A stretch of DNA of 64,000 nt from the human T2T-CHM13v2.0 reference genome, Homo sapiens. Position numbers and translations under genes: made by a program. The first letter of the stretch is position 1, and each line of letters begins with the position of its first letter. The stretch lies in NCBI RefSeq assembly GCF_009914755.1, contig NC_060936.1; one strand, written 5' to 3'. Below are positions 8,805-56,070 of the stretch, piece by piece. Below the pieces are notes generated by a model. The model was not told where the DNA came from, searched no databases, and saw only the letters and a program-made list of their open reading frames with translations.

Positions 8805-8990
8805 CGACATGGGGATGTTCCAGGCCATGTACACGTGGGACTTGAAGTCATCCATCCACACCTCGGCGGCGCGCAGGGCGTTGCGCTTGGCGTAGTAGTC
8901 AATGTCGTTGTTGTAGGGCTTCCTGGTGCGCTCGATGTGGGCCACGCGGGAGCAGGGCAGCACCTCCATGCTGCCGCCACACTGCCACAC
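8805..8990 (-). CDS. GALNT9: GALNT9 coding exon (end of catalytic domain; probably exon 7)
   Basis: [26 protein letters not shown]...[15 protein letters not shown]...NIPMS. CAG acceptor, GTGAGT donor, 186 nt, phase 0-0. Confidence 0.97.
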
Positions 8991-17269: not shown

Positions 17270-18270
17270 GGGACCATGTCTGCAGCTGTGAGTGATGCTT
17301 GCGTCAGTGGACACTCCGCATGGCAGCGGACGTGCACGCAGGCAGGCCCCACCCAGCCAGGCATTGAGAGAAAAGACGGGTGGGGAGTTCCCAGAGAAGG
17401 ATGCCAGCCTTCAGACCGTGACACGGAAACCCCACCCGGGTCTACAGCCTTCACACCACGACACGGAAACCCCACCCGGGTCTGCAGCCTTCAGACCTCG
17501 ACACGGAAACCCCACCCGGGTCTGCAGCCCTCAGACCTCGACACGGAAACCCCACCCGGGTCTGCAGCCCTCAGACCTCGACACGGAAACCCCACCCGGG
17601 TCTGCAGCCTTCAGACCTCGACACGGAAACCCCACCCGGGTCTGCAGCCCTCAGACCTCGACAGGGAAACCCCACCCGGGTCTGCAGCCCTCAGACCTCG
17701 ACACGGAAACCCCACCCGGGTCTGCAGCCCTCAGACCTCGACACGGAAACCCCACCCGGGTCTAGCAGCCCTCAGACCTCGACACGGAAACCCCACCCGG
17801 GTCTGCAGCCCTCAGACCTCGACACGGAAACCCCACCCGGGTCTGCAGCCCTCAGACCTCGACACGGAAACCCCACCCGGGTCTGCAGCCCTCAGACCGT
17901 GACACGGAAACCCCACCCGGGTCTGCAGCCCTCAGACCTCGACACGGAAACCCCACCCGGGTCTGCAGCTCTCAGACCGTGACATGGAAACCCCACCCGG
18001 GTCTGCAGCCCTCAGACCGTGACATGGAAACCCCACCCGGGTCTACAGCCTTGAGACCGTGACACGGAAACCCCACCCGAGTCTACAGCCTTGAGACCTC
18101 GACACGGAAACCCCACCCGGGTCTGCAGCCCTCAGACCTCGACACGGAAACCCCACCCGGGTCTGCAGCCTTCAGACCGTGACACAGAAAACCCACCCAC
18201 TGCCCACCTTAAGGATCTCAGACTTGGCAACCCCACAATTGTGTGAGCCAATTCTTAGAATCAATTTCTT
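17270..18270 (+). mobile_element. MLT2-like ERVL LTR relic hosting a VNTR
   Basis: 3' part AGACTTGGCAACCCCACAATTGTGTGAGCCAATTCTTAGAATCAATTTCT followed by a CA tract is typical of MLT2. Confidence 0.6.
17405..18186. repeat. 40-bp VNTR, ~19 copies
   Basis: GACACGGAAACCCCACCCGGGTCTGCAGCCCTCAGACCTC. Confidence 0.97.
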
Positions 18271-35195: not shown

Positions 35196-38100
35196 CCCTA
35201 GTGCCACACACTCGATGGAGTGACAGAGGAGACAGCGTGGAGTCCCTAGTGCCACACACTCGATGGGGCGACAGAGGAGACAGCGTGGAGTCCCTAGTGC
35301 CACACACTCGATGGGGCGACAGAGGAGACAGCGTGGAGCCCCTACTGCCACACACTCCATGGGGCGACAGAGGAGACAGCGTGGAGCCCCTAGTGCCACA
35401 CACTCGATGGGGCGACAGAGGAGACAGCGTGGAGTCCCCTACTGCCACACACTCGATGGGGCGACAGAGGAGACAGCGTGGAGTCCCTAGTGCCACACAC
35501 TCGATGGGGCGACAGAGGAGACAGCGTGGAGTCCCTAGTGCCACACACTCGATGGGGCGACAGAGGAGACAGCGTGGAGCCCCTAGTGCCACACACTCGA
35601 TGGGGCGACAGAGGAGACAGCGTGGAGTCCCTAGTGCCACACACTCGATGGGGCGACAGAGGAGACAGCGTGGAGTCCCTAGTGCCACACACTCGATGGG
35701 GCGACAGAGGAGACAGCGTGGAGCCCCTACTGCCACACACTCGATGGGGCGACAGAGGAGACAGCGTGGAGCCCCTAGTGCCACACACTCGATGGGGCGA
35801 CAGAGGAGACAGCGTGGAGCCCCTAGTGCCACACACTCGATGGGGCGACAGAGGAGACAGCGTGGAGCCCCTAGTGCCACACACTCGATGGGGCGACAGA
35901 GGAGACAGCGTGGAGTCCCTAGTGCCACACACTCGATGGGGCGACAGAGGAGACAGCGTGGAGTCCCTAGTGCCACACACTCGATGGGGTGACAGGGACA
36001 GCGTGGAGCCCCTAGTGCTACACACTCGATGGGGCGACAGAGGAGACAGCGTGGAGTCCCTAGTGCCACACACTCGATGGGGCGACAGAGGAGACAGCGT
36101 GGAGTCCCTAGTGCCACACACTCGATGGGGCGACAGAGGAGACAGCGTGGAGTCCCTAGTGCCACACACTCGATGGGGCGACAGAGGAGACAGCATGGAG
36201 TCCCTAGTGCCACACACTCGATGGGGCGACAGAGGAGACAGTGTGGAGTCCCTACTGCCACACACTCGATGGGGCGACAGAGGAGACAGCGTGGAGCCCC
36301 TAGTGCCACACACTCGATGGGGCGACAGAGGAGACAGCGTGGAGTCCCTAGTGCCACACACTCGATGGGGCGACAGAGGAGACAGCGTGGAGTCCCTAGT
36401 GCCACACACTCGATGGGGCGACAGAGGAGACAGCGTGGAGTCCCTAGTGCCACACACTCGATGGGGCGACAGAGGAGACAGCGTGGAGTCCCTAGTGCCA
36501 CACACTCGATGGGGTGACAGGGACAGCGTGGAGCCCCTAGTGCTACACACTCGATGGGGCGACAGAGGAGACAGCGTGGAGTCCCTAGTGCCACACACTC
36601 GATGGGGCGACAGAGGAGACAGTGTGGAGTCCCTAGTGCCACACACTCGATGGGGCGACAGAGGAGACAGTGTGGAGTCCCTAGTGCCACACACTCGATG
36701 GGGCGACAGAGGAGACAGCGTGGAGTCCCTAGTGCCACACACTCGATGGGGCGACAGAGGAGACAGCGTGGAGTCCCTAGTGCCACACACTCGATGGGGC
36801 GACAGAGGAGACAGCGTGGAGTCCCTAGTGCCACACACTCGATGGGGCGACAGAGGAGACAGCGTGGAGTCCCTAGTGCCACACACTCGATGGGGCGACA
36901 GAGGAGACAGCGTGGAGTCCCTACTGCCACACACTCGATGGGGCGACAGAGGAGACAGCGTGGAGTCCCTAGTGCCACACACTCGATGGGGCGACAGAGG
37001 AGACAGCGTGGAGTCCCTAGTGCCACACACTCGATGGGGCGACAGAGGAGACAGTGTGGAGTCCCTAGTGCCACACACTCGATGGGGCGACAGAGGAGAC
37101 AGCGTGGAGTCCCTAGTGCCACACACTCGATGGGGCGACAGAGGAGACAGCGTGGAGTCCCTAGTGCCACACACTCGATGGGGCGACAGAGGAGACAGCG
37201 TGGAGTCCCTAGTGCCACACACTCGATGGGGCGACAGAGGAGACAGCGTGGAGTCCCTAGTGCCACACACTCGATGGGGCGACAGAGGAGACAGCGTGGA
37301 GTCCCCTACTGCCACACACTCCATGGGGCGACAGGAGACAGCGTGGAGCCCCTAGTGCCACACACTCGATGGGGCGACAGAGGAGACAGCGTGGAGTCCC
37401 TAGTGCCACACACTCGATGGGGCGACAGAGGAGACAGCGTGGAGCCCCTAGTGCCACACACTCGATGGGGCGACAGAGGAGACAGCGTGGAGCCCCTAGT
37501 GCCACACACTCGATGGGGCGACAGAGGAGACAGCGTGGAGCCCCTAGTGCCACACACTCGATGGGGCGACAGAGGAGACAGCGTGGAGCCCCTAGTGCCA
37601 CACACTCGATGGGGCGACAGAGGAGACAGCGTGGAGTCCCTAGTGCCACACACTCGATGGCGTGAGAGAGGAGACAGCGTGGAGTCCCTAGTGCCACACA
37701 CTCGATGGGGTGACAGAGGAGACAGTGTGGAGCCCCTAGTGCCACACACTCGATGGGGCGACAGAGGAGACAGCGTGGAGTCCCTGGTGCCACACACTCG
37801 ATGGGGCGACAGAGGAGACAGCGTGGAGTCCCTAGTGCCACACACTCGATGGCGTGAGAGAGGAGACAGCGTGGAGTCCCTAGTGCCACACACTCGATGG
37901 GGCGACAGAGGAGACAGCGTGGAGCCCCTAGTGCCACACACTCGATGGGGCGACAGAGGAGACAGCGTGGAGTCCCTAGTGCCACACACTCGATGGGGCG
38001 ACAGAGGAGACAGCATGGAGTCCCTAGTGCCACACACTCGATGGGGCGACAGAGGAGACAGCGTGGAGTCCCTAGTGCCACACACTCGATGGGGCGACAG

Positions 38101-38786
38101 AGGAGACAGTGTGGAGCCCCTAGTGCCACACACTCGATGGGGCGACAGAGGAGACAGCGTGGAGTCCCTGGTGCCACACACTCGATGGGGCGACAGAGGA
38201 GACAGCGTGGAGTCCCTAGTGCCACACACTCGATGGCGTGAGAGAGGAGACAGCGTGGAGTCCCTAGTGCCACACACTCGATGGCGTGAGAGAGGAGACA
38301 GCGTGGAGTCCCTAGTGCCACACACTCGATGGGGCGACAGAGGAGACAGCGTGGAGCCCCTAGTGCCACACACTCGATGGGGCGACAGAGGAGACAGCGT
38401 GGAGTCCCTAGTGCCACACACTCGATGGGGCGACAGAGGAGACAGCATGGAGTCCCTAGTGCCACACACTCGATGGGGCGACAGAGGAGACAGCGTGGAG
38501 TCCCTAGTGCCACACACTCGATGGGGCGACAGAGGAGACAGTGTGGAGCCCCTAGTGCCACACACTCGATGGGGCGACAGAGGAGACAGCGTGGAGTCCC
38601 TGGTGCCACACACTCGATGGGGCGACAGAGGAGACAGCGTGGAGTCCCTAGTGCCACACACTCGATGGCGTGAGAGAGGAGACAGCGTGGAGTCCCTAGT
38701 GCCACACACTCGATGGGGTGACAGGGACAGCGTGGAGCCCCTAGTGCCACACACTCGATGGCGTGAGAGAGGAGACAGCGTGGAGC
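35196..38786. repeat. 48-bp VNTR, ~75 copies (3.6 kb)
   Basis: CCCTAGTGCCACACACTCGATGGGGCGACAGAGGAGACAGCGTGGAGT. Confidence 0.98.
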
Positions 38787-39219: not shown

Positions 39220-39726
39220 CCCCTCGGGACAGGGCAGGAGGGTCCCCCGGGCTGGAGTTCAACCCTCGGGACAGGGCAGGAGGGTCCCCCGGGCTGGAGT
39301 GAGTTCAACCCTCGGGACAGGGCAGGAGGGTCCCCCGGGCTGGAGTTCAACCCTCGGGACAGGGCAGGAGGGTCCCCCGGGCTGGAGTTCAACCCTCGGG
39401 ACAGGGCAGGAGGGTCCCCCGGGCTGGAGTTCAACCCTCGGGACAGGGCAGGAGGGTCCCCCGGGCTGGAGTTCAACCCTCGGGACAGGGCAGGAGGGTC
39501 CCCCGGGCTGGAGTTCAACCCTCGGGACAGGGCAGGAGGGTCCCCCGGGCTGGAGTTCAACCCTCGGGACAGGGCAGGAGGGTCCCCCGGGCTGGAGTTC
39601 AACCCTCGGGACAGGGCAGGAGGGTCCCCCGGGCTGGAGTTCAACCCTCGGGACAGGGCAGGAGGGTCCCCCGGGCTGGAGTTCAACCCTCGGGACAGGG
39701 CAGAAGATCCCCTGGGCTGGAGTTCA
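39220..39726. repeat. 42-bp VNTR, ~12 near-identical copies
   Basis: AACCCTCGGGACAGGGCAGGAGGGTCCCCCGGGCTGGAGTTC. Confidence 0.97.
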
Positions 39727-40799
39727 AGGTCAGACGGGCCTTTCAAATACAAGCAAATGCCAGCCTCCCTCCCCCAGGCATCGATCTCGTGAATAAATCA
39801 GCAATGACAGCCCCGACAGGCGGCTGGCGGGGAGCGGGTGGGGGCCATGGCCCTGGAGTGGGGGTCGCGGTGGGCCTGGGTCGGGGCCAAGGGAGCCACA
39901 TCCAGTGTGGGGGCTGCGGGCTCCAGGCCTGGTGTCTCTGGAGGGGGCCTCGGAACCGGAGGGGAAGACCCCACAGCGTCTGCGGAGCTCCCTGAGGCCC
40001 CATAGCACCTGTCATCACGGCTGCCAGGGAGTCAGCTCTGCAAAATCATCACAGACGTGGGGGGATGGCGTCTCTCCCTCCCCCAGCCCTTTCCCCTTCC
40101 TTCCTTCCCACCTTCTTTCCTTTCTTCTATCTTTCCTTTCAAGCTCCAAACTTGCACTTTGATTTCCTTCAAGAGTCCACCCTTATCTGTACCTGGTTAA
40201 AATAATCAGCGAAAACCAAAGCCATCCCGAAGATCGCCCAGCCTCGCAAGGTGTAAGGTTTCGGGGCATCAAGCCTGGCCTCGGCCAGCCACGCCTCCTG
40301 GGGGTCTCCCGTGTCTAAGTCTTGCTGTGCCCCCAATTTCAAGTCAGTGGTGATCCCTGTGGTCTATCCTGGGCATGGCGGCCCCTCATGCCCGTTTTCC
40401 CAGGGTTGGTTTGGCTGTGGTCTTTGTGGCATCGGGATGGGAAAGCCATGTGGGTGCTGGTCGTGTGGCCTCCCACAGCCTGGCTTCCTCCCGCAGGCCC
40501 CACAGCTGTTCTTATCCTCATCCAATCTGGTAACCCTCGTATCCTGGATCTCTCCGGGTGCTCCATGGCCCATGGGATTCCGCCCAGGTCCTCTTCTCCA
40601 CTGGACTTCTCCTCCATCTCTCAGGGAGCCCAGGGCTGCCCTGACCCCAGTGTGGAGCGGCCAGGTCTCTCGGGACTGTGGCTGCTGAGGCTGTGCAGGC
40701 AGTGTGGGACCCAGGGCTGGTTGGCTGTGTCCTGACCTGGAGTCTGGCTGCCTTCACGTGGAGCTCCTGTATCTGCCGTGTACCCTCAGCTGCCCCAGG

Positions 40800-43468: not shown

Positions 43469-44354
43469 GAATCATTTCTTGTGAGGGGCCTGGCCTCAGG
43501 CAGCCGCCTGCCTGGGAGCTGCTAGGCTGTCTGGTGTCTGGGGAGAGGAGTGATCAGAGGTGAAGAGTGGCTCCCCAACCCAGGCCCGCCGCTCTAAACA
43601 CAGGAAGATCCACAGTCCTTGGGCAGTTTATAGAACTGCTCCCCTTGGGGCCTATCAGGATGTGTGGTCTTAAATCATTGCTGTTTAATATTCAACAGTT
43701 GCTCCACTGAGAACAAGCGTATTTAGGGGACGTTGCTTGAGAGGAATCTCCTCTCTAAATGGCGGGGTTGAGTGGGGTGGTCGCCCTACAGGTCAGGGAT
43801 CTGGAATATGACCAAGTCAGGCGCCGCCATCGGGCTGGGGGTCACCGTGCCCCTCCCTGTAGCCCCGGCCCGGCTCTGGCCTCTGGCCGGCAGACTCCAG
43901 GGCTGCAGGGAGACCCCACTGTACACCCCATGCTGGCCAGGTGGCTGGTGAAAGGGACCCTTTGGCTTCCAGCCTCCACTTGTTCAGCGCAGACATGGCC
44001 TCAGAACCAGCCCTCAGAACGGAGCAAGAATAGCCGTGCCCAGCTCGGACCCCGGGCGGCACTCACTCCAGTCGCTGGCAGTGCTGCTGTGGGCCTGGCG
44101 TGGCCCCAGGGCTCAGCTGTGGGCTCCGTGCGTGGCCCCGGGGCTCGGCTGTGGGCTCCGTGCGTGGCCCCGGGGCTCGGCTGTGCTCTATGGGCCTCGG
44201 ACCTGCTCCTCTTCACTCTCTGCCGTGTTTTTCTTCCTCTTTTATTCTGTTTATAATTTACCTTATCTTGCTGGAACCCTTCTGTTTCCTGGGAAGTTAC
44301 CAGAACCTGATCACCAGCAGAATTGGAATGTGCAGTATGATCTATACATGTTTA

Positions 44355-47300
44355 CACACATGCCACACACCCTTCCCAAGGCCGTCCCTATACCCATTAC
44401 ACACACACCACACCCCCTTCCCAGGGCCGTCCCTATACCCATTACACACACACCACACACCCTTCCCGGGGCCCTCCCTATCCCCATTACACACACGCCA
44501 CACCCCCTTCCCGGGGCCCTCCCTATACCCATTACACACACGCCACACCCCCTTCCCGGGGCCCTCCCTATACCCATTACACACACAACACACACCCTTC
44601 CAGGGGCCCTCCCTATACCCATTACACACACGCCACACACCCTTCCCGGGGCCCTCCCTATACCCATTACACACACAACACACACCCTTCCAGGGGCCCT
44701 CCCTATACCCATTACACACACGCCACACCCCCTTCCCAGGGCCCTCCCTATCCCCATTACACACACAACACACCCCCTTCCAGGGGCCCTCCCTATACCC
44801 ATTACACACACGCCACACCCCCTTCCCGGGGCCCTCCCTATACCCATTACACACACAACACACCCCCTTCCCGGGGCCCTCCCTATACCCATTACACACA
44901 CGCCACACCCCCTTCCCGGGGCCCTCCCTATACCCATTACACACACGCCACACACCCTTCCCGGGACCCTCCCTATACCAATTACACACACAACACACAC
45001 CCTTCCAGGGGCCCTCCCTATACCCATTACACACATGCCACACCCCCTTCCCAGGGCCCTCCCTATCCCCATTACACACACAACACACCCCCTTCCAGGG
45101 GCCCTCCCTATACCCATTACACACACGCCACACCCCCTTCCCGGGGCCCTCCCTATACCCATTACACACACACCACACACCCTTCCAGGGGCCCTCCCTA
45201 TACCCATTACACACACGCCACACACCCTTCCCTTGGCCGTCCCTATACCCATTACACACACGCCACACCACCTTCCCGGGGCCCTCCCTATACCCATTAC
45301 ACACACGCCACACACCCTTACAGGGGCCCTCCCTATACCCATTACACACACGCCACACCCCCTTCCTGGGGACCTCCCTATACCCATTACACACACGCCA
45401 CACACCCTTCCCGGGGCCCTCCCTATACCCATTACACACACGCCACACCCCCTTCCCAGGGACCTCCCTATCCCCATTACACACACGCCACACCCCCTTC
45501 CCGGGGCCCTCCCTATACCCATTACACACACGCCACACACCCTTCCCGGGGCCCTCCCTATCCCCATTAAACACACAACACACACCCTTCCCGGGGCCCT
45601 CCCTATACCCATTACACACACAACACACACTTCCCGGGGCCCTCCCTATCCCCATTAAACACACAACACACCCCCTTCCCGGGGCCCTCCCTATACCCAT
45701 TACACACACGCCACACACCCTTCCCGGGGCCGTCCCTATACCCATTACACACACACCACACCCCCTTCCCGGGGCCCTCCCTATACCCATTACACACACG
45801 CCACACCCCCTTCCCAGGGACCCTCCCTATACCCATTACACACACAACACACACTTCCCGGGGCCCTCCCTATACCCATTACACACACAACACACCCCCT
45901 TCCCGGGGCCCTCCCTATCCCCATTAAACACACAACACACCCCCTTCCCAGGGCCCTCCCTATACCCATTACACACACAACACACACTTCCCGGGGCCCT
46001 CCCTATACCCATTACACACACGCCACACACCCTTCCCGGGGCCCTCCCTATACCCATTACACACACGCCACACCCCCTTCCCGGGGCCCTCCCTATACCC
46101 ATTACACACACACCACACCCCCTTCCCGGGGCCCTCCCTATACCCATTACACACACAACACACACCCTTCCCGGGGCCCTCCCTATACCCATTACACACA
46201 CGCCACACCCCCTTCCCGGGGCCCTCCCTATACCAATTACACACACGCCACACACCCTTCCCGGGGCCCTCCCTATACCCATTACACACACAACACACAC
46301 CCTTCCCGGGGCCCTCCCTATACCCATTACACACACACCACACCCCCTTCCCGGGGCCCTCCCTATACCCATTACACACACAACACACCCCCTTCCCGGG
46401 GCCTTCCCTATACCCATTACACACACGCCACACCCCCTTCCAGGGGCCCTCCCTATACCCATTACACACACAACACACCCCCTTCCCGGGGCCCTCCCTA
46501 TACCCATTACACACACGCCACACCCCCTTCCCGGAGCCCTCCCTATACCCATTACACACACACCACACCCCCTTCCAGGGGCCCTCCCTATACCCATTAC
46601 ACACACAACACACACCCTTCCCGGGGCCCTCCCTATACCCATTACACACACACCACACACCCTTCCCGGGGCCCTCCCTATACCCATTACACACACGCCA
46701 CACCCCCTTCCCGGGGCCCTCCCTATACCCATTACACACACACCACACCCCCTTCCAGGGGCCCTCCCTATACCCATTACACACACAACACACACCCTTC
46801 CCGGGGCCCTCCCTATACCCATTACACACACGCCACACACCCTTCCCGGGGCCCTCCCTATACCCATTACACACACAACACACACCCTTCCCGGGGCCCT
46901 CCCTATACCCATTACACACACACCACACCCCCTTCCCGGGGCCCTCCCTATACCCATTACACACACGCCACACCCCCTTCCCGGAGCCCTCCCTATACCC
47001 ATTACACACACGCCACACCCCCTTCCAGGGGCCCTCCCTATACCCATTACACACACAACACACCCCCTTCCCGGGGCCTTCCCTATACCCATTACACACA
47101 CGCCACACCCCCTTCCAGGGGCCCTCCCTATACCCATTACACACACAACACACCCCCTTCCCGGGGCCTTCCCTATACCCATTACACACACGCCACACCC
47201 CCTTCCAGGGGCCCTCCCTATACCCATTACACACACGCCACACCCCCTTCCCGGGGCCCTCCCTATACCCATTACACACACAACACACACACTTCCCGGA

Positions 47301-49955
47301 GCCCTCCCTATACCCATTACACACACGCCACACACCCTTCCAGGGGCCCTCCCTATCCCCATTACACACACAACACACCCCCTTCCCGGGGCCTTCCCTA
47401 TACCCATTACACACACGCCACACCCCCTTCCAGGGGCCCTCCCTATACCCATTACACACACGCCACACCCCCTTCCCAGGGCCCTCCCTATACCCATTAC
47501 ACACACGCCACACCCCCTTCCAGGGGCCCTCCCTATACCCATTACACACACAACACACCCCCTTCCCGGGGCCCTCCCTATACCCATTACACACACGCCA
47601 CACCCCCTTCCCGGAGCCCTCCCTATACCCATTACACACACGCCACACCCCCTTCCCGGGGCCCTCCCTATACCCATTACACACACAACACACACACTTC
47701 CCGGAGCCCTCCCTATACCCATTACACACACGCCACACACCCTTCCAGGGGCCCTCCCTATACCCATTAGACACACAACACACCCCCTTCCCGGGGCCTT
47801 CCCTATACCCATTACACACACGCCACACCCCCTTCCAGGGGCCCTCCCTATACCCATTACACACACGCCACACCACCTTCCCGGGGCCCTCCCTATACCC
47901 ATTACACACACGCCACACCCCCTTCCCAGGGACCCTCCCTATACCCATTACACACACGCCACACCCCCTTCCAGGGGCCCTCCCTATACCCATTACACAC
48001 ACGCCACGCCCCCTTCCCGGGGCCCTCCCTATACCCATTACACACACGCCACGCCCCCTTCCCGGGGCCCTCCCTATACCCATTACACACACGCCACACA
48101 CCCTTCCCGGGGCCCTCCCTATACCCATTACACACACGCCACGCCCCCTTCCCGGGGCCCTCCCTATACCCATTACACACACGCCACGCCCCCTTCCCGG
48201 GGCCCTCCCTATACCCATTACACACACGCCACACCCCCTTCCCGGGGCCCTCCCTATACCCATTACACACACGCCACACCCCCTTCCCGGGGCCCTCCCT
48301 ATACCCATTACACACACGCCACACCCCCTTCCCGGGGCCTTCCCTATACCCATTACACACACGCCACACCCCCTTCCCGGGGCCCTCCCTATACCCATTA
48401 CACACACGCCACACCCCCTTCCCGGGGCCCTCCCTATACCCATTACACACACACCACACCCCCTTCCCGGGGCCCTCCCTATACCCATTACACACACGCC
48501 ACACCCCCTTCCCGGGGCCCTCCCTATACCCATTACACACACGCCACACCCCCTTCCCGGGGCCTTCCCTATACCCATTACACACACGCCACACCCCCTT
48601 CCCGGGGCCTTCCCTATACCCATTACACACACAACACACACCCTTCCCGGGGCCCTCCCTATACCCATTACACACACGCCACACCCCCTTCCCGGGGCCT
48701 TCCCTATACCCATTACACACACGCCACACCCCCTTCCCGGGGCCCTCCCTATACCCATTACACACACACCATACCCCCTTCCCGGGGCCCTCCCTATACC
48801 CATTACACACACGCCACACCCCCTTCCCGGGGCCTTCCCTATACCCATTACACACACGCCACACCCCCTTCCCGGGGCCCTCCCTATACCCATTACACAC
48901 ACAACACACACCCTTCCCGGGGCCCTCCCTATACCCATTACACACACGCCACACCCCCTTCCCGGGGCCTTCCCTATACCCATTACACACACGCCACACC
49001 CCCTTCCCGGGGCCCTCCCTATACCCATTACACACACGCCACACCCCCTTCCCGGGGCCCTCCCTATACCCATTACACACACGCCACACCCCCTTCCCGG
49101 GGCCCTCCCTATACCCATTACACACACGCCACACCCCCTTCCCGGGGCCCTCCCTATACCCATTACACACACGCCATACCCCCTTCCCGGGGCCCTCCCT
49201 ATACCCATTACACACACGCCACACCCCCTTCCCGGGGCCCTCCCTATACCCATTACACACACGCCGCACCCCCTTCCCGGGGCCTTCCCTATACCCATTA
49301 CACACACGCCACACCCCCTTCCCGGGGCCCTCCCTATACCCATTACACACACGCCACACCCCCTTCCCGGGGCCCTCCCTATACCCATTACACACACGCC
49401 ACACCCCCTTCCCGGGGCCCTCCCTATACCCATTACACACACGCCACACCCCCTTCCCGGGGCCCTCCCTATACCCATTACACACACGCCACACCCCCTT
49501 CCCGGGGCCCTCCCTATACCCATTACACACACGCCACACCCCCTTCCCGGGGCCCTCCCTATACCCATTACACACACGCCACACCCCCTTCCCGGGGCCC
49601 TCCCTATACCCATTACACACACGCCACACACCCTTCCCGGGGCCCTCCCTATACCCATTACACACACGCCACACCCCCTTCCCGGGGCCCTCCCTATACC
49701 CATTACACACACGCCACACCCCCTTCCCGGGGCCCTCCCTATACCCATTACACACACGCCACACCCCCTTCCCGGGGCCCTCCCTATACCCATTACACAC
49801 ACGCCACACACCCTTCCCGGGGCCCTCCCTATACCCATTACACACACGCCACACCCCCTTCCCGGGGCCCTCCCTATACCCATTACACACACAACACACA
49901 CTTCCCGGGGCCCTCCCTATACCCATTACACACACACCACACACCCTTCCCGGGG
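44355..49955. repeat. 45-bp VNTR, ~124 copies (5.6 kb)
   Basis: CCTTCCCGGGGCCCTCCCTATACCCATTACACACACGCCACACCC. Confidence 0.98.
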
Positions 49956-50863
49956 GGCCATCAGGGCCCCCAGTGGCCTCAGTGTCCAGTCCTCCCCGTC
50001 CTCCGGAGCTCTCTCTGGTGGGGGCCCCAGTCCTCCTCGTCTTCCGGAGCTCTCTCTCTCTGGTGGGGGCCCCACCTGGCCGACCTGAAGGTCAGGGCAT
50101 CCACTCTTTGGGGAAACGAAGTTGGGTTCGTAGGGGCAGCTCTGGTGTTGTTGGTCCTTCCCTCCAGACACCACGTCTCTTCGTCTGGCTCCCAGGAGAC
50201 CCCAGTTCTATTTCTATTTCTCCCGCCTCTGTCATCCCCTCAAACTGCTTCTGCATAGCCCCCACTCTGCCTCTCAGGCTTTAACCCCAACTGTGAGCCC
50301 CACCTGGCTGTCCTGGGGCCACTGAACTCCACGTGTCCATCGTGGCTCTCCCCAACATGCCACCACGCACCGGCTGGCATTCTGTCCCTATGAAGGCCCT
50401 GCCTGCCTGGGGACTGGGAATCAGCCGCTGTCCCAGCCCACCCGTCAATCACCCATCAATCACCGGCCAATCACCCGTCAATCACCGTCTCTTGCCAGCT
50501 TTGCATCCTAAATATTTTTTGGAAGAGTCCCGTGTCCGCCACACCCCACAAGAAAGAAAGTTCACCCTACTGGGCTCAACAGTAAAGATGTTAATGAAGG
50601 GAAGCTTTAGGGATGTGTGGTTAGGGGCATAGGGACAGACGGGGGCAGTGCAACCTCAGGGGCGGCAACGTGCAGTTCTCGACACCGGCAGAGTGAGGCC
50701 TCGGGCCGGCCACTCGGACCACGGTGCAGCTTCCAACAACCTGTGGTGCCTCCACGGGCCAAGACAGCCTGCGGTGCCTCCACGGGCCAAGAGCACAAGG
50801 TGGGAGGAGGGAAGGAGCTGGGGGACTGGAAAGCGGTGGTCAGCATCTGAGGGCCCGGCAGGG

Positions 50864-51955
50864 CTGGGGCTAGACGGGGGATGTGGTGATGGGGCTGGAC
50901 GGGGGGGCGTGGTGATGGGGCTGGACGGGGGCGTGGTGATGGGGCTGGACGGGGGATGTGGTGATGGGGCTGGACGGGGGGGCGTGGTGATGGGGCTGGA
51001 CGGGGGCGTGGTGATGGGGCTGGATGGGGGCGTGGTGATGGGGCTGGACGGGGGGGCGTGGTGATGGGGCTGGACGGGGGCGTGGTGATGGGGCTGGACG
51101 GGGGCGTGGTGATGGGGCTGGACGGGGGCGTGGTGATGGGGCTGGACGGGGGCGTGGTGATGGGGCTGGATGGGGGCGTGGTGATGGGGCTGGATGGGGG
51201 CGTGGTGATGGGGGCTGGACGGGGGGGCGTGGTGATGGGGCTGGACGGGGGCGTGGTGATGGGGCTGGACGGGGGCGTGGTGATGGGGCTGGATGGGGGC
51301 GTGGTGATGGGGCTGGACGGGGGGGCGTGGTGATGGGGCTGGATGGGGGGGCGTGGTGATGGGGCTGGACGGGGGCGTGGTGATGGGGCTGGACGGGTGC
51401 GTGGTGATGGGGGCTGGACGGGGGGGCGTGGTGATGGGGCTGGACGGGGGCGTGGTGATGGGGCTGGACGGGGGCGTGGTGATGGGGCTGGACGGGGGCG
51501 TGGTGATGGGGCTGGACGGGGGCGTGGTGATGGGGCTGGATGGGGGCGTGGTGATGGGGCTGGATGGGGGCGTGGTGATGGGGGCTGGACGGGGGGGCGT
51601 GGTGATGGGGCTGGACGGGGGCGTGGTGATGGGGCTGGACGGGGGCGTGGTGATGGGGCTGGATGGGGGCGTGGTGATGGGGCTGGATGGGGGCGTGGTG
51701 ATGGGGGCTGGACGGGGGGGCGTGGTGATGGGGCTGGACGGGGGCGTGGTGATGGGGCTGGACGGGGGCGTGGTGATGGGGCTGGATGGGGGCGTGGTGA
51801 TGGGGCTGGACGGGGGGGCGTGGTGATGGGGCTGGATGGGGGGGCGTGGTGATGGGGCTGGACGGGGGCGTGGTGATGGGGCTGGACGGGGGCGTGGTGA
51901 TGGGGCTGGACGGGCAGCATGGTGATGGAGTTGGACGGGGGCGTGGTGATGGGGA
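50864..51955. repeat. ~24-bp G-rich VNTR, ~45 copies
   Basis: GTGGTGATGGGGCTGGACGGGGGC with variable G-run lengths. Confidence 0.97.
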
Positions 51956-54224: not shown

Positions 54225-54355
54225 GCAGAAGCCCGGCCGAGCTCAGAGCCTCACACGGACACGGTCCCGGGAGGCAGAAGCCCGGCCCAGCTCAGAGCCT
54301 CACACAGACACAGTCCCGGGAGGCAGAAGCCCGGCCGAGCTCAGAGCCTCACACC
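54225..54355. repeat. 49-bp tandem repeat x~2.7
   Basis: GCAGAAGCCCGGCCGAGCTCAGAGCCTCACAC.. at 54225, 54274 and 54323. Confidence 0.88.
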
Positions 54356-54659
54356 CACCCTCTGTGCCGAAGGACCCACCTTTCCAAGGTCCCAATCCAT
54401 TGTCACCTGGGGGCAATTCATAAACAGCAAAACAAAGGGCATGAAAAATAAAGTAGACATGGGAAATGCCATCTTTTGTGATTCTACAAAATTTCTCAGT
54501 GATGTTGCCACTGAGCTTCTAGCAAGACTCAGGGTAGCCCCATCTCACTGTCCCCAACTCCAGCTCAGGGACCCTGGGAGCCTTGGCCGCCCAGCTTGGC
54601 TTCCAGCTGCCTCAGCCTAGGCTCTGGAGAGGGCTCAGTGCGCTGAGCAGGAGCCCTGG

Positions 54660-55024
54660 ACCTCACCCTGTCCCTAGACCATGGCTGCACTCGCCCTCAC
54701 CCTGTCCCCGGACACTGCAGCCACACTCGCCCTCACCCCATCCCCAGACGCCATGGCCGCACTCGCCCTCACCCCGTCCCCGGATGCCGTGGCCGCACTC
54801 GCCCTCACCCCGTCCCCAGACACCGCGGCCTCACTCGCCCTCACCCCGTCCCCAGATGCCGTGGCCGCACTCGCCCTCACCCCATCCCCGGACGCTGCAG
54901 CCACACTCGCCCTCACCCCGTCCCCGGACACCGCGGCCTCACTCGCCCTCATCCTGTTCCCAGACGCTGTGGCCTCACTCGCCCTCACCCTGTCCCTGGA
55001 CACCGGGGCCGCACTCACCCTCAT
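54660..55024. repeat. 36-bp VNTR (~10 units) starting at the exon donor site
   Basis: CACTCGCCCTCACCCCGTCCCCRGAYRCYGYGGCC, period 36 (54688, 54724...). The unit overlapping the exon end carries the true donor. Confidence 0.95.
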
Positions 55025-55136
55025 GCCCAGTTCTACGTTCTCGCCGCCATACACCTCCATGCCGGGGTCCAGCAGCCCAATGTCTCCGAAGTACTCGCGG
55101 TCCACTACGAAGGAGCAGCCGATCATGGCTGGGGTC
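55019..55136 (-). CDS. GALNT9: GALNT9 internal coding exon (catalytic domain, Gal/GalNAc-T motif; probably exon 6)
   Basis: Translates (R)TPAMIGCSFVVDREYFGDIGLLDPGMEVYGGENVELGMR. AG acceptor at 55138-55137, donor AGG|GTGAGT at 55018. 118 nt, joins in frame to the 8990 exon. Confidence 0.96.
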
Positions 55137-55996: not shown

Positions 55997-56070
55997 AGCA
56001 GTGGTGAAGGCAGGATCCGCGGAGCAGTGAAGGCAGGATCTGCGGAGCAGTGAAGGCAGGATCTGCAGAG
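55997..56070. repeat. 23-bp tandem repeat x3
   Basis: GAAGGCAGGATCYGCGGAGCAGT. Confidence 0.85.

What the first reader, a model, noticed from the sequence alone, without database searches (positions are those of the whole stretch)
54660..55030. Minisatellite built from a splice donor: a ladder of in-frame alternative 5' splice sites on a GALNT9 catalytic exon
Seen: the 36-bp unit copies the exon/intron junction. The true donor is ATGAGG|GTGAGT at 55018. Each downstream unit has TGAGG|GCGAGT, a GC-type copy (first at 54982), and most also have a GT site 6 nt earlier (e.g. GACAGG|GTGAGG at 54988). The unit is exactly 12 codons, all these sites are phase 0, and the frame stays open across the array (VSAAPVSRDRVR-ASEATASGNRMR-ASEAAVSGDGVR...) to TAG at 54676-54674. 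Inference: using any site inserts 12n or 12n-2 Ala/Ser-rich residues just after the YGGEN motif with no NMD. Copy number, or a single C>T at the CpG of GCGAGT (giving a perfect GTGAGT), could tune the ratio of normal to insertion-bearing enzyme.
Basis: partly seen in the sequence, partly recalled or inferred. Interest (0 to 1): 0.82.

Follow-up and report, generated by a model that had tools for sequence, protein, structure and literature searches.

The report
Splice-donor minisatellite in GALNT9 intron
A 36-base repeat that begins at a GALNT9 exon/intron junction really does copy the splice-donor signal about nine times in frame, but this is a known kind of arrangement in which the extra copies usually stay silent.

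Summary
On the minus strand the exon ends at 55019 and the donor is AGG|GTGAGT. A 36-bp x 9.5 tandem array (54661-55023) starts 5 nt inside the exon. It carries 9 GC-type copies of the donor (AGG|GCGAGT, every 36 nt from 54982) and 8 GT sites ((A/G)GG|GTGAGG, 6 nt upstream of 8 of the 9). All 17 are phase 0, and the frame stays open to TAG at 54676-54674.

The "tunable isoform ladder" reading is not supported by anything I could test.
- Precedent: junction-spanning minisatellites with repeated donors are described for F7, IFI6, CBS, LMNB2 and PDGFA. In F7, identical pseudo-sites are functional but silent because the most upstream site wins.
- Site strength: the GALNT9 true donor is both the most upstream and the strongest site.
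- Chance level: a 3n period and an open frame are ordinary in this minisatellite-rich window.
- No coding constraint: unit differences show no codon-position bias, and copy number and frame are not conserved in other primates.
- Insertion point: it lies inside the length-invariant WGGEN...R|VWQCGG catalytic core.

The array is most likely a neutral, catarrhine-restricted minisatellite of largely silent pseudo-donors. No RNA data could be examined. It is a new member of a known kind, of modest interest.

The parts
55019..55136 (-). GALNT9 coding exon (118 nt) ending in phase 0. It encodes ...MEVYGGENVELGMR.
   Evidence: Translated. It matches GalNAc-T2 residues 303-341 and 14 other solved GalNAc-T sequences. 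Exon limits come from the hub annotation.
55013..55021 (-). Authentic 5' splice site AGG|GTGAGT, with the cut between 55019 and 55018.
   Evidence: It matches 8 of 9 consensus positions. Its U1 duplex energy of -11.2 kcal/mol is the best of all listed sites.
54661..55023 (-). 36-bp minisatellite of about 9.5-10 units with a 108-bp higher order. Its first unit spans the exon/intron junction.
   Evidence: TRF, units in register, 14-nt core found 9 times.
54983..54991 (-). First GT pseudo-donor AGG|GTGAGG (+30 nt, phase 0). Sister sites have their +1 base at 54916, 54880, 54844, 54808, 54772, 54736 (all GGG|GTGAGG) and 54700 (AGG|GTGAGG).
   Evidence: 7 of 9 or 6 of 9 consensus matches. U1 duplex -9.5 to -9.8 kcal/mol.
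54977..54985 (-). First GC-type copy of the true donor, AGG|GCGAGT (+36 nt, phase 0). It repeats every 36 nt with the +1 base at 54946, 54910, 54874, 54838, 54802, 54766, 54730 and 54694.
   Evidence: 7 of 9 consensus matches. U1 duplex -6.5 to -7.6 kcal/mol. The CpG is kept in 8 of 8 full downstream units.
54674..54676 (-). TAG that closes the exon-phase frame in the last, partial unit.
8805..8990 (-). Next coding exon (186 nt, phase 0-0) starting [18 protein letters not shown]... Its acceptor is CCCCGCAG|G.
   Evidence: It matches GalNAc-T2 residues 342-399, directly contiguous with the upstream exon's match.

Best explanation
This is a neutral, primate (catarrhine) minisatellite. It arose by tandem duplication of the first ~31 intron bases plus the last ~5 exon bases of a GALNT9 catalytic-domain exon, so donor-like sequence is repeated through the first ~350 nt of a 46-kb intron.

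The pseudo-donors are probably competent but essentially silent in normal splicing, for four reasons.
1. The authentic site is the most upstream.
2. The authentic site has the best match to U1.
3. Every true copy of the donor carries GC instead of GT.
4. If a downstream site were used, the G-run-rich repeat would become exon sequence.

The expected consequences are at most trace in-frame +10 or +12 codon isoforms, which would very likely be inactive enzyme. The array would also act as a reserve of cryptic donors if the true donor were mutated, with a predicted shift to 54988 (+30 nt).

Shown: the anatomy, site ranking, chance-level framing, lack of coding constraint, primate lability and position in the catalytic core.
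Inferred: silence of the sites, from the F7 precedent and site strength.
For: Anatomy and site ranking
- The anatomy is established.
- U1 duplex energy is -11.2 kcal/mol for the true donor, -9.5 to -9.8 for the GT pseudo-sites and -6.5 to -7.6 for the GC copies. Consensus matches are 8 of 9, 6-7 of 9 and 7 of 9.

Precedent (PMC1557585; I read the introduction, discussion and results sections 6 and 9)
- F7 pseudo-sites identical to the true donor are functional but never used.
- Sites raised to a consensus value of 91 (TGG/gtgagt) still lose to the upstream site of value 74. Only perfect sites compete.
- The GALNT9 true donor differs from that value-91 site only at position -3.
- LMNB2 and PDGFA use only the authentic site. 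IFI6 and CBS use only the first two pseudo-sites.

No coding constraint
- 12 of 36 unit columns vary, spread 4:3:5 over codon positions. Nearly all are CpG-transition states.

Lability in primates
- One unnamed primate-like entry has 4 units.
- The baboon model has about 9 units with two indels.
- A monkey-like entry shifts frame inside the array.

Chance level
- A period divisible by 3 occurs in 6 of 18 arrays in the window. A stop-free frame occurs in 14 of 18.

Position in the enzyme
- The junction lies in a core that is contiguous, with no gap, in all solved GalNAc-T paralogues matched.
- 89 of 120 database representatives have GMR|VWQCGG contiguous. 0 of 120 join an array site to VWQCGG.

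RNA structure
- No special structure masks or exposes the sites: z = +0.58, and 71 of 100 shuffles fold at least as well.
Against: - No transcript data were available, so silence is inferred, not shown.
- IFI6 and CBS show that the first two pseudo-sites of such arrays can be used constitutively.
- The first GT pseudo-site (54988) is a good donor by consensus and lies only 30 nt downstream.
- One automated gibbon model (P0004) leaves the array after 12-14 codons and continues in a sequence matching window 50095-50268. At least one gene-building pipeline therefore chose a pseudo-donor there.
- The protein database is clustered at 90% identity. A 10-12-residue insertion isoform would be hidden inside the canonical cluster, so the 0 of 120 is weak evidence.
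- The donor-copy CpG is kept in 8 of 8 units, against 20 of 48 at the other six CpG sites. This could hint at selection against creating perfect pseudo-donors, which would imply they are not harmless.
- My site scores use a recalled frequency matrix and a recalled U1 5' end, not MaxEntScan or SpliceAI.
Confidence: 0.6

Rival explanations
1. Low-level constitutive use of the first one or two pseudo-sites, as in IFI6 and CBS. A minor share of GALNT9 mRNA would use 54988 (+10 codons) and/or 54982 (+12 codons). This would yield NMD-immune transcripts for a probably inactive enzyme, with no use of deeper units and no dependence on copy number.
For: [quoted passage not shown]
- 54988 is AGG|GTGAGG, with 7 of 9 consensus matches and a U1 duplex of -9.5 kcal/mol. 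It lies 30 nt from the true site.
- The extension is in frame with no stop.
Against: - In F7, identical sites 37 nt apart gave no detectable use among 50 subclones per construct.
- The true GALNT9 donor is stronger than either pseudo-site.
- The hub annotation lists no such RefSeq transcript.
- 0 of 120 database representatives show it, though this is weak evidence because of 90% clustering.
Confidence: 0.25
2. Many units are used as a ladder of in-frame donors. Unit number, or GC>GT changes, set the ratio of normal to insertion-bearing GalNAc-T9.
For: - All 17 sites are phase 0 and free of premature stops.
- Each GC copy is one CpG transition from the exact true donor.
- Copy number differs between primate entries, 4 versus about 9 units.
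Against: - No known junction minisatellite uses more than the first two pseudo-sites.
- The F7 scanning rule holds against it.
- The in-frame period and open frame are at chance level.
- There is no codon-position bias among unit differences.
- The frame is not kept in a monkey-like entry, P0003.
- Probable GTGAGT units exist in the baboon model without visible consequence for the gene model.
- The insertion falls in the invariant catalytic core.
Confidence: 0.05
3. The array acts as an intronic splicing aid. The repeated U1-binding sequences and the G-runs just downstream of the true donor would recruit U1 snRNP and hnRNP H/F-type factors. This would strengthen definition of the 118-nt exon ahead of a 46-kb intron. 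This reading is not exclusive of the best explanation.
For: - There are 28 G-runs of 3 or more on the sense strand against 1 C-run within 54659-55018, and 17 U1-complementary sites.
- From my own recall, not checked here: G triplets downstream of a 5' splice site act as intronic enhancers favouring the upstream site.
Against: - In F7, the authors found no autonomous regulating element in the neighbouring intron. I saw only the section 10 heading and the discussion statement.
- Non-primate read-through entries lack the array, so the exon is spliced without it in other mammals.
- One primate-like entry has only 4 units.
Confidence: 0.1

Closest known systems
F7 intron 7 37-bp VNTR (Borensztajn et al. 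2006, PMC1557585)
   Same: The first monomer consists of the last few exon bases plus the start of the intron (4 + 33 bp in F7, about 5 + 31 bp here). The donor is repeated 5-9 times at a fixed spacing in the proximal intron.
   Different: - F7 pseudo-sites are identical to the true donor. In GALNT9 the true copies are GC variants, and a second GT site sits 6 nt upstream.
- The F7 period of 37 is not a multiple of 3. The GALNT9 period of 36 keeps the frame.
- F7 is a proven human VNTR with minigene data. Nothing of that kind exists for GALNT9 in the library I searched.
IFI6 (6-16) minisatellite providing multiple splice donor sites (Turri et al. 1995)
   Same: A junction-spanning minisatellite whose repeat units serve as alternative donors and give several mRNA species.
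   Different: - In IFI6 the two proximal pseudo-sites are shown to be used. In GALNT9 use is untested.
- I did not see the paper itself, because PMC306954 is not held. I saw only its description in PMC1557585 and PMC4526556.
- That the IFI6 unit is 12 nt and in frame is my recollection, not checked.
CBS exon 13/intron 13 31-bp VNTR (Yang et al. 2000; Lievers et al. 2001)
   Same: - The repeat spans the exon/intron border, c.1444_1467+7(16_21).
- Two pseudo-sites are used.
[quoted passage not shown] This parallels GT>GC in every downstream GALNT9 copy.
   Different: - The CBS unit is mostly exonic (24 + 7) and out of frame (31 bp), and it is polymorphic in humans at 16-21 copies.
- The GALNT9 unit is almost wholly intronic and in frame.
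- I saw Yang 2000 and Lievers 2001 only as reference-list titles.
LMNB2 100-bp and PDGFA 81-bp junction minisatellites
   Same: The authentic donor is repeated in intronic monomers, and only the authentic site is used. This is the behaviour I predict for GALNT9.
   Different: Their units are longer. I know them only from the PMC1557585 introduction.

Membership tests
Junction-spanning minisatellite with repeated 5' splice site (F7 / IFI6 / CBS type) | A tandem array whose first monomer spans the exon-intron boundary | tested here: met
   The TRF array 54661/54683-55023 ends 5 nt inside the exon, which ends at 55019. The TGAGG or ATGAGG bases are shared between the exon end and the unit ends.
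Junction-spanning minisatellite with repeated 5' splice site (F7 / IFI6 / CBS type) | Donor consensus repeated in the following monomers | tested here: met
   There are 9 GC-type copies and 8 GT sites at fixed register. The copies of the true donor are GC, not GT, so the repetition is not exact.
Junction-spanning minisatellite with repeated 5' splice site (F7 / IFI6 / CBS type) | Copy number variable in the human population (VNTR) | not testable with these tools
   Only one human haplotype is in hand. Between species, one unnamed primate-like entry has 4 units, the baboon model about 9 and human 9.5.
Junction-spanning minisatellite with repeated 5' splice site (F7 / IFI6 / CBS type) | Known splicing behaviour of the pseudo-sites (silent, or the first two used) | not testable with these tools
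   No RNA-seq or cDNA data were available. Among 120 database representatives, 0 join an array site to VWQCGG, but 90% clustering would hide such isoforms.
GC-AG intron donor | GC at +1/+2 with an otherwise near-consensus 5' splice site, used with a normal AG acceptor | tested here: inconclusive
   AGG|GCGAGT matches every other consensus position except -2. Use as a donor is untested. U1 duplex energy is only -6.5 to -7.6 kcal/mol.
GT27 polypeptide GalNAc-transferase catalytic domain (host exon) | WGGEN...R-VWxCGG (Gal/GalNAc-T motif) region contiguous and homologous to solved GalNAc-Ts | tested here: met
   The exon peptides hit 15 and 16 distinct PDB sequences. The GalNAc-T2 matches are 303-341 and 342-399, with no gap at the junction in any paralogue matched.

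The most novel reading that the evidence does not exclude
The array is a primate-specific, NMD-immune splicing rheostat. In brain, a copy-number- or variant-dependent share of GALNT9 pre-mRNA would use the in-frame pseudo-donors. This would yield catalytically dead, possibly lectin-competent or dominant-negative, GalNAc-T9. Hominoids would have kept every true donor copy disarmed as GC (9 of 9) because perfect copies are harmful.
Probability: 0.05. Interest if true: 0.6.

Novelty: new member of a known kind. Interest (0 to 1): 0.3.

Why it matters
- It adds a clean natural test case for how the spliceosome chooses among closely spaced, repeated 5' splice sites. The case is unusual in being in frame, so usage would not be erased by NMD, and in pairing a GT site with a GC site in each unit.
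- It predicts that a mutation of the GALNT9 donor at 55018 would shift splicing 30 nt downstream rather than skip the exon. That matters when interpreting splice variants.
- It is an annotation trap. Baboon and gibbon automated models run into the array.
- If the sites are silent, as I expect, there is no consequence for GalNAc-T9 biology.

Tried and rejected
- Turri et al. 1995 (PMC306954): not held.
- Literature on a GALNT9 repeat or splicing effect:
  - 'GALNT9'+'VNTR' gave 2 papers.
  - 'GALNT9'+'tandem repeat' gave 26 papers, of which 15 were listed.
  - 'GALNT9'+'sQTL' gave 1 paper.
  - None concerns this array. The two I opened mention GALNT9 only for a reference gap and a 6.3-kb self-alignment.
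- My recollection of a CUL4A splice-site VNTR: the search 'CUL4A'+'VNTR'+'splice' found nothing relevant, so I dropped it.
- Tandem-repeat splicing catalogue (PMC10078293): I searched 10 supplement files; file 1 could not be searched. The only GALNT9 row is a non-significant AGCCCC microsatellite. The 36-bp array was not among the rows I could see. A follow-up text search failed on term syntax and I did not repeat it.
- RNA structure masking the pseudo-sites: rejected, z = +0.58.
- Canonical G-quadruplex motifs with loops of 1-7: 0 found. Only long-loop variants occur, 15 of them.
- Coding constraint on the repeat: rejected, given the codon-position spread of 4:3:5 and a frame that is not conserved in P0003.
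- Selection on the donor-copy CpG: 8 of 8 units keep it, against 20 of 48 at the other six sites. The units are related by duplication (108-bp higher order). With a minimum of about 11-13 mutation events over six sites, zero events at a seventh has a probability of roughly 0.1 (my arithmetic). I judged this not significant.
- Non-primate intron tails (P0005, P0007, P0015): no match in the window.
- MaxEntScan and SpliceAI: not available. I used a recalled frequency matrix and U1 duplex energies instead.

Full report
**1. What is there**

On the minus strand the GALNT9 exon 55136-55019 ends ...GTG TAT GGC GGC GAG AAC GTA GAA CTG GGC ATG AGG, which encodes ...VYGGENVELGMR in phase 0. The intron opens with GTGAGT at 55018.

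Tandem Repeats Finder reports a 36-bp unit x 9.5 copies at 54683-55023 (82% matches, no indels, score 430). It also reports a 108-bp (3-unit) higher-order period x 3.4 at 54661-55023. The array therefore starts 5 nt inside the exon.

Laid out in register from 55018, unit 0 begins with the true donor GTGAGT. Units 1-9 all begin with GCGAGT. The 14-nt core GGTGAGGGCGAGTG occurs 9 times, 8 exact and 1 with one mismatch. All copies are in the array. 0.06 matches are expected by chance, and 0 of 100 shuffles reach 9.

**2. The sites**

I scanned 55140-54601 for GT and GC dinucleotides, keeping GT sites above 2 bits and GC sites above 6 bits on a crude matrix. The matrix was recalled from memory and is only a filter. 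The scan lists these sites:

| Site class | Sequence | +1 positions | Consensus matches | U1 duplex (kcal/mol) |
|---|---|---|---|---|
| True donor | AGG\|GTGAGT | 55018 | 8 of 9 | -11.2 |
| In-frame GT sites (8) | AGG\|GTGAGG | 54988, 54700 | 7 of 9 | -9.5 |
| | GGG\|GTGAGG | 54916, 54880, 54844, 54808, 54772, 54736 | 6 of 9 | -9.8 |
| GC copies of the donor (9) | AGG\|GCGAGT | 54982, then every 36 nt to 54694 | 7 of 9 | -6.5 to -7.6 |
| Out-of-frame GT site | AGG\|GTGAGG | 54666 (past the stop) | 7 of 9 | -9.5 |

The U1 5' end used for the duplex energies was recalled from memory.

Distances from the true donor are 36n or 36n-6, all phase 0. The frame reads VSAAPVSRDRVR ASEATASGNRMR ASEAAVSGDGVR ... 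to TAG at 54676-54674. The downstream exon (8990-8805) starts VWQCGG... in phase 0 behind CCCCGCAG.

Two refinements apply:
- Only TGAGG or ATGAGG of the exon is shared with the unit. Over the last 36 exon bases, identity is 13-16 of 36.
- The GT sites are not copies of the true donor. They correspond to the exon's ATGAGG with A>G. Unit 1 still has ATGAGG.

**3. Is the framing more than chance?**

No. The window is extraordinarily rich in minisatellites. It holds 18 distinct arrays covering 13,808 of 64,000 bases.
- 6 of the 18 have a period divisible by 3, which is the chance expectation.
- 14 of the 18 have at least one stop-free frame on some strand. One of these is the 5.6-kb 45-bp array.
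- The GALNT9 array is open in 1 of 3 sense frames, with stops per frame of 11, 3 and 0.
- A phase-0 GTGAGT donor is read GTG AGT, which avoids its own TGA. A unit built from it is therefore likely to be open in that frame.

**4. Is the repeat under coding or structural constraint?**

No sign of either.
- Among units 1-8, 12 of 36 columns vary, spread 4:3:5 over codon positions 1:2:3. Almost all alternatives are CG>TG or CG>CA states, the signature of neutral CpG decay.
- The RNA folds no better than shuffles. The MFE is -165.3 against a shuffle mean of -168.1 ± 4.8, giving z = +0.58. 71 of 100 shuffles fold at least as well.

One oddity remains. The CpG of GCGAGT is intact in 8 of 8 full downstream units, and also in the partial unit 9. 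The six other CpG sites keep CG in only 20 of 48 cells. The units are copies of each other (108-bp higher order), so the independent events are few. By my rough count a minimum of 11-13 events fall on the six sites. That gives about a 0.1 chance of none at a seventh, so I do not count this as evidence of selection.

**5. Other species**

I searched a large protein database with the exon plus two units (63 aa, longer proteins). It gave 501 hits among 537 candidates, and the best 120 were listed.

Four primate entries run from the exon into the array:

| Entry | Source | What it shows |
|---|---|---|
| P0001 | Papio anubis UniRef model | A 106-residue tail of about 9 units. Several units start V-S (probably GTGAGT). 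Two units carry 1- and 3-residue insertions. |
| P0002 | Unnamed | 4 units, then the flank. The flank is 89% identical to 54568-54678. |
| P0003 | Unnamed, monkey-like | The frame shifts inside the array. |
| P0004 | Nomascus UniRef model | Leaves the array after 12-14 codons. It continues in sequence 86% identical to window 50095-50268 (minus) and ends in a stop. |

Non-primate read-through entries begin VS or VR but have no 12-residue periodicity. Three that I tested (P0005, P0007, P0015) do not match the human intron.

So the array is shared by Old World monkeys and apes, is absent from the other mammals seen, and varies in copy number and frame.

Of the 120 representatives, 89 have GMR|VWQCGG contiguous. 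None joins an array site to VWQCGG, 27 lack VWQCGG after the motif (fragments or read-through) and 2 lack the motif. The remaining 2 have unrelated inserts. The database is clustered at 90% identity. A 10-12-residue insertion isoform would therefore be hidden, and this negative is weak.

**6. Where an insertion would fall**

The two exon peptides match solved GalNAc-transferases back to back:
- GalNAc-T2: 303-341 and 342-399.
- GalNAc-T1: 201-239 and 240-296 in 1xhb.
- The same contiguity holds for T4, T7, T10, T12 and the others matched. In all, 15 and 16 distinct PDB sequences were hit.

The site lies between WGGEN-x-E-x-x-x-R and VWQCGG. It sits inside the conserved Gal/GalNAc-T motif, some 20 residues before the His that I recall as a Mn ligand in T2 (not checked here). 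No solved paralogue has a length change there. An Ala/Ser/Gly-rich insert of 10 or more residues would very probably inactivate the enzyme. That is an inference.

**7. What is known**

This architecture is described in the literature. Borensztajn et al. 2006 (PMC1557585) is the main source. I read the abstract, introduction, discussion, results sections 6 and 9, and the consensus-value methods. The paper studies the F7 IVS7 37-bp minisatellite, whose first monomer is 4 exon bases plus 33 intron bases.
- The 5-9 identical pseudo-sites are functional when the upstream ones are destroyed.
- They are never used otherwise.
- Pseudo-sites improved to consensus values of 82-91 are still not used.
- Only perfect (value 100) sites compete.

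The paper's introduction lists further cases:

| Gene | Behaviour |
|---|---|
| IFI6 (6-16) | 25 pseudo-sites, the two most proximal used |
| CBS IVS13 | Two pseudo-sites used |
| LMNB2 | Authentic site only |
| PDGFA | Authentic site only |

- PMC4526556 (introduction passage) confirms three IFI6 mRNAs from two downstream repeat units.
- The title of Yang et al. 2000, seen only in a reference list, says a single substitution in the second CBS repeat prevents multiple alternate splicing. This closely parallels GT>GC in all GALNT9 copies.
- I found no paper on this GALNT9 array.
- The tandem-repeat splicing catalogue I could search lists only an unrelated, non-significant GALNT9 microsatellite (one supplement file could not be searched).

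**8. Most likely mechanism**

The true donor is both the first and the best site. TGG/gtgagt scores 91 in the F7 paper, and the GALNT9 site differs from it only at -3. The exact copies are disarmed to GC. The GT sites are weaker at +6 and mostly at -3.

Use of a downstream site would also turn a G-run-dense segment into exon. There are 28 G-runs against 1 C-run. From recall, G-runs favour the upstream donor when intronic.

I therefore expect essentially exclusive use of 55018. At most there would be trace use of 54988 or 54982, with a shift to 54988 if the true donor is lost (confidence 0.6). The rivals are:
- IFI6/CBS-like minor use of the first two sites (0.25);
- an intronic enhancer role, not exclusive of the best explanation (0.1);

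None of this could be tested against RNA data here.

**9. Verdict**

The array is a new member of a known kind. It is a neat in-frame example and a useful test case, but not a surprise to a splicing specialist.

Noticed in passing
window 1-64000 (e.g. 44352-49955, 35196-38785, 50865-51954, 17405-18198, 39221-39727): The intron is extraordinarily dense in minisatellites. It holds 18 distinct arrays covering 13,808 of 64,000 bases. They include a 45-bp x 125 array (the annotated minisatellite and instability region), 48-bp x 75, 24-bp x 44, 40-bp x 20 and 42-bp x 12. The 5.6-kb 45-bp array has a plus-strand frame with no stop at all.
   Followed up: partly
window 50095-50268 (-): The tail of a gibbon UniRef GALNT9 model (P0004) matches this stretch at 86% identity after leaving the junction array. 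It looks like a cryptic exon about 4.7 kb into the intron that ends in a stop. In human the stretch is preceded by ...GGCAG.
   Followed up: partly
window 44067-44288 (-): A chimpanzee 'LOW QUALITY PROTEIN: GALNT9 isoform 6' model (P0025) carries a 73-residue in-frame insert between GMR and VWQCGG. The insert maps here at 96% identity. It overlaps a 32-bp x 3.2 repeat and abuts the large 45-bp minisatellite.
   Followed up: partly
window 54659-55018: The array has CpG-island-like composition: GC 0.72 and CpG observed/expected 0.84, against 0.22 and 0.41 in the flanks. It also has strong G/C strand asymmetry, with 28 G-runs against 1 C-run on the transcribed sense strand. There are 15 overlapping long-loop G-quadruplex-type motifs but 0 canonical ones.
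   Followed up: no
window 54695-54982, unit columns 2-3: The CpG inside every GCGAGT donor copy is intact in 8 of 8 full downstream units. The six other CpG sites of the unit keep CG in only 20 of 48 cells. This is suggestive of constraint or homogenisation, but not significant once the relatedness of the units is allowed for.
   Followed up: partly
window 54225-54354 and 56004-56070: Two further small tandem repeats flank the exon. One is 49-bp x 2.7 (95% matches), about 300 nt beyond the array. The other is 23-bp x 2.9 in the upstream intron.
   Followed up: no
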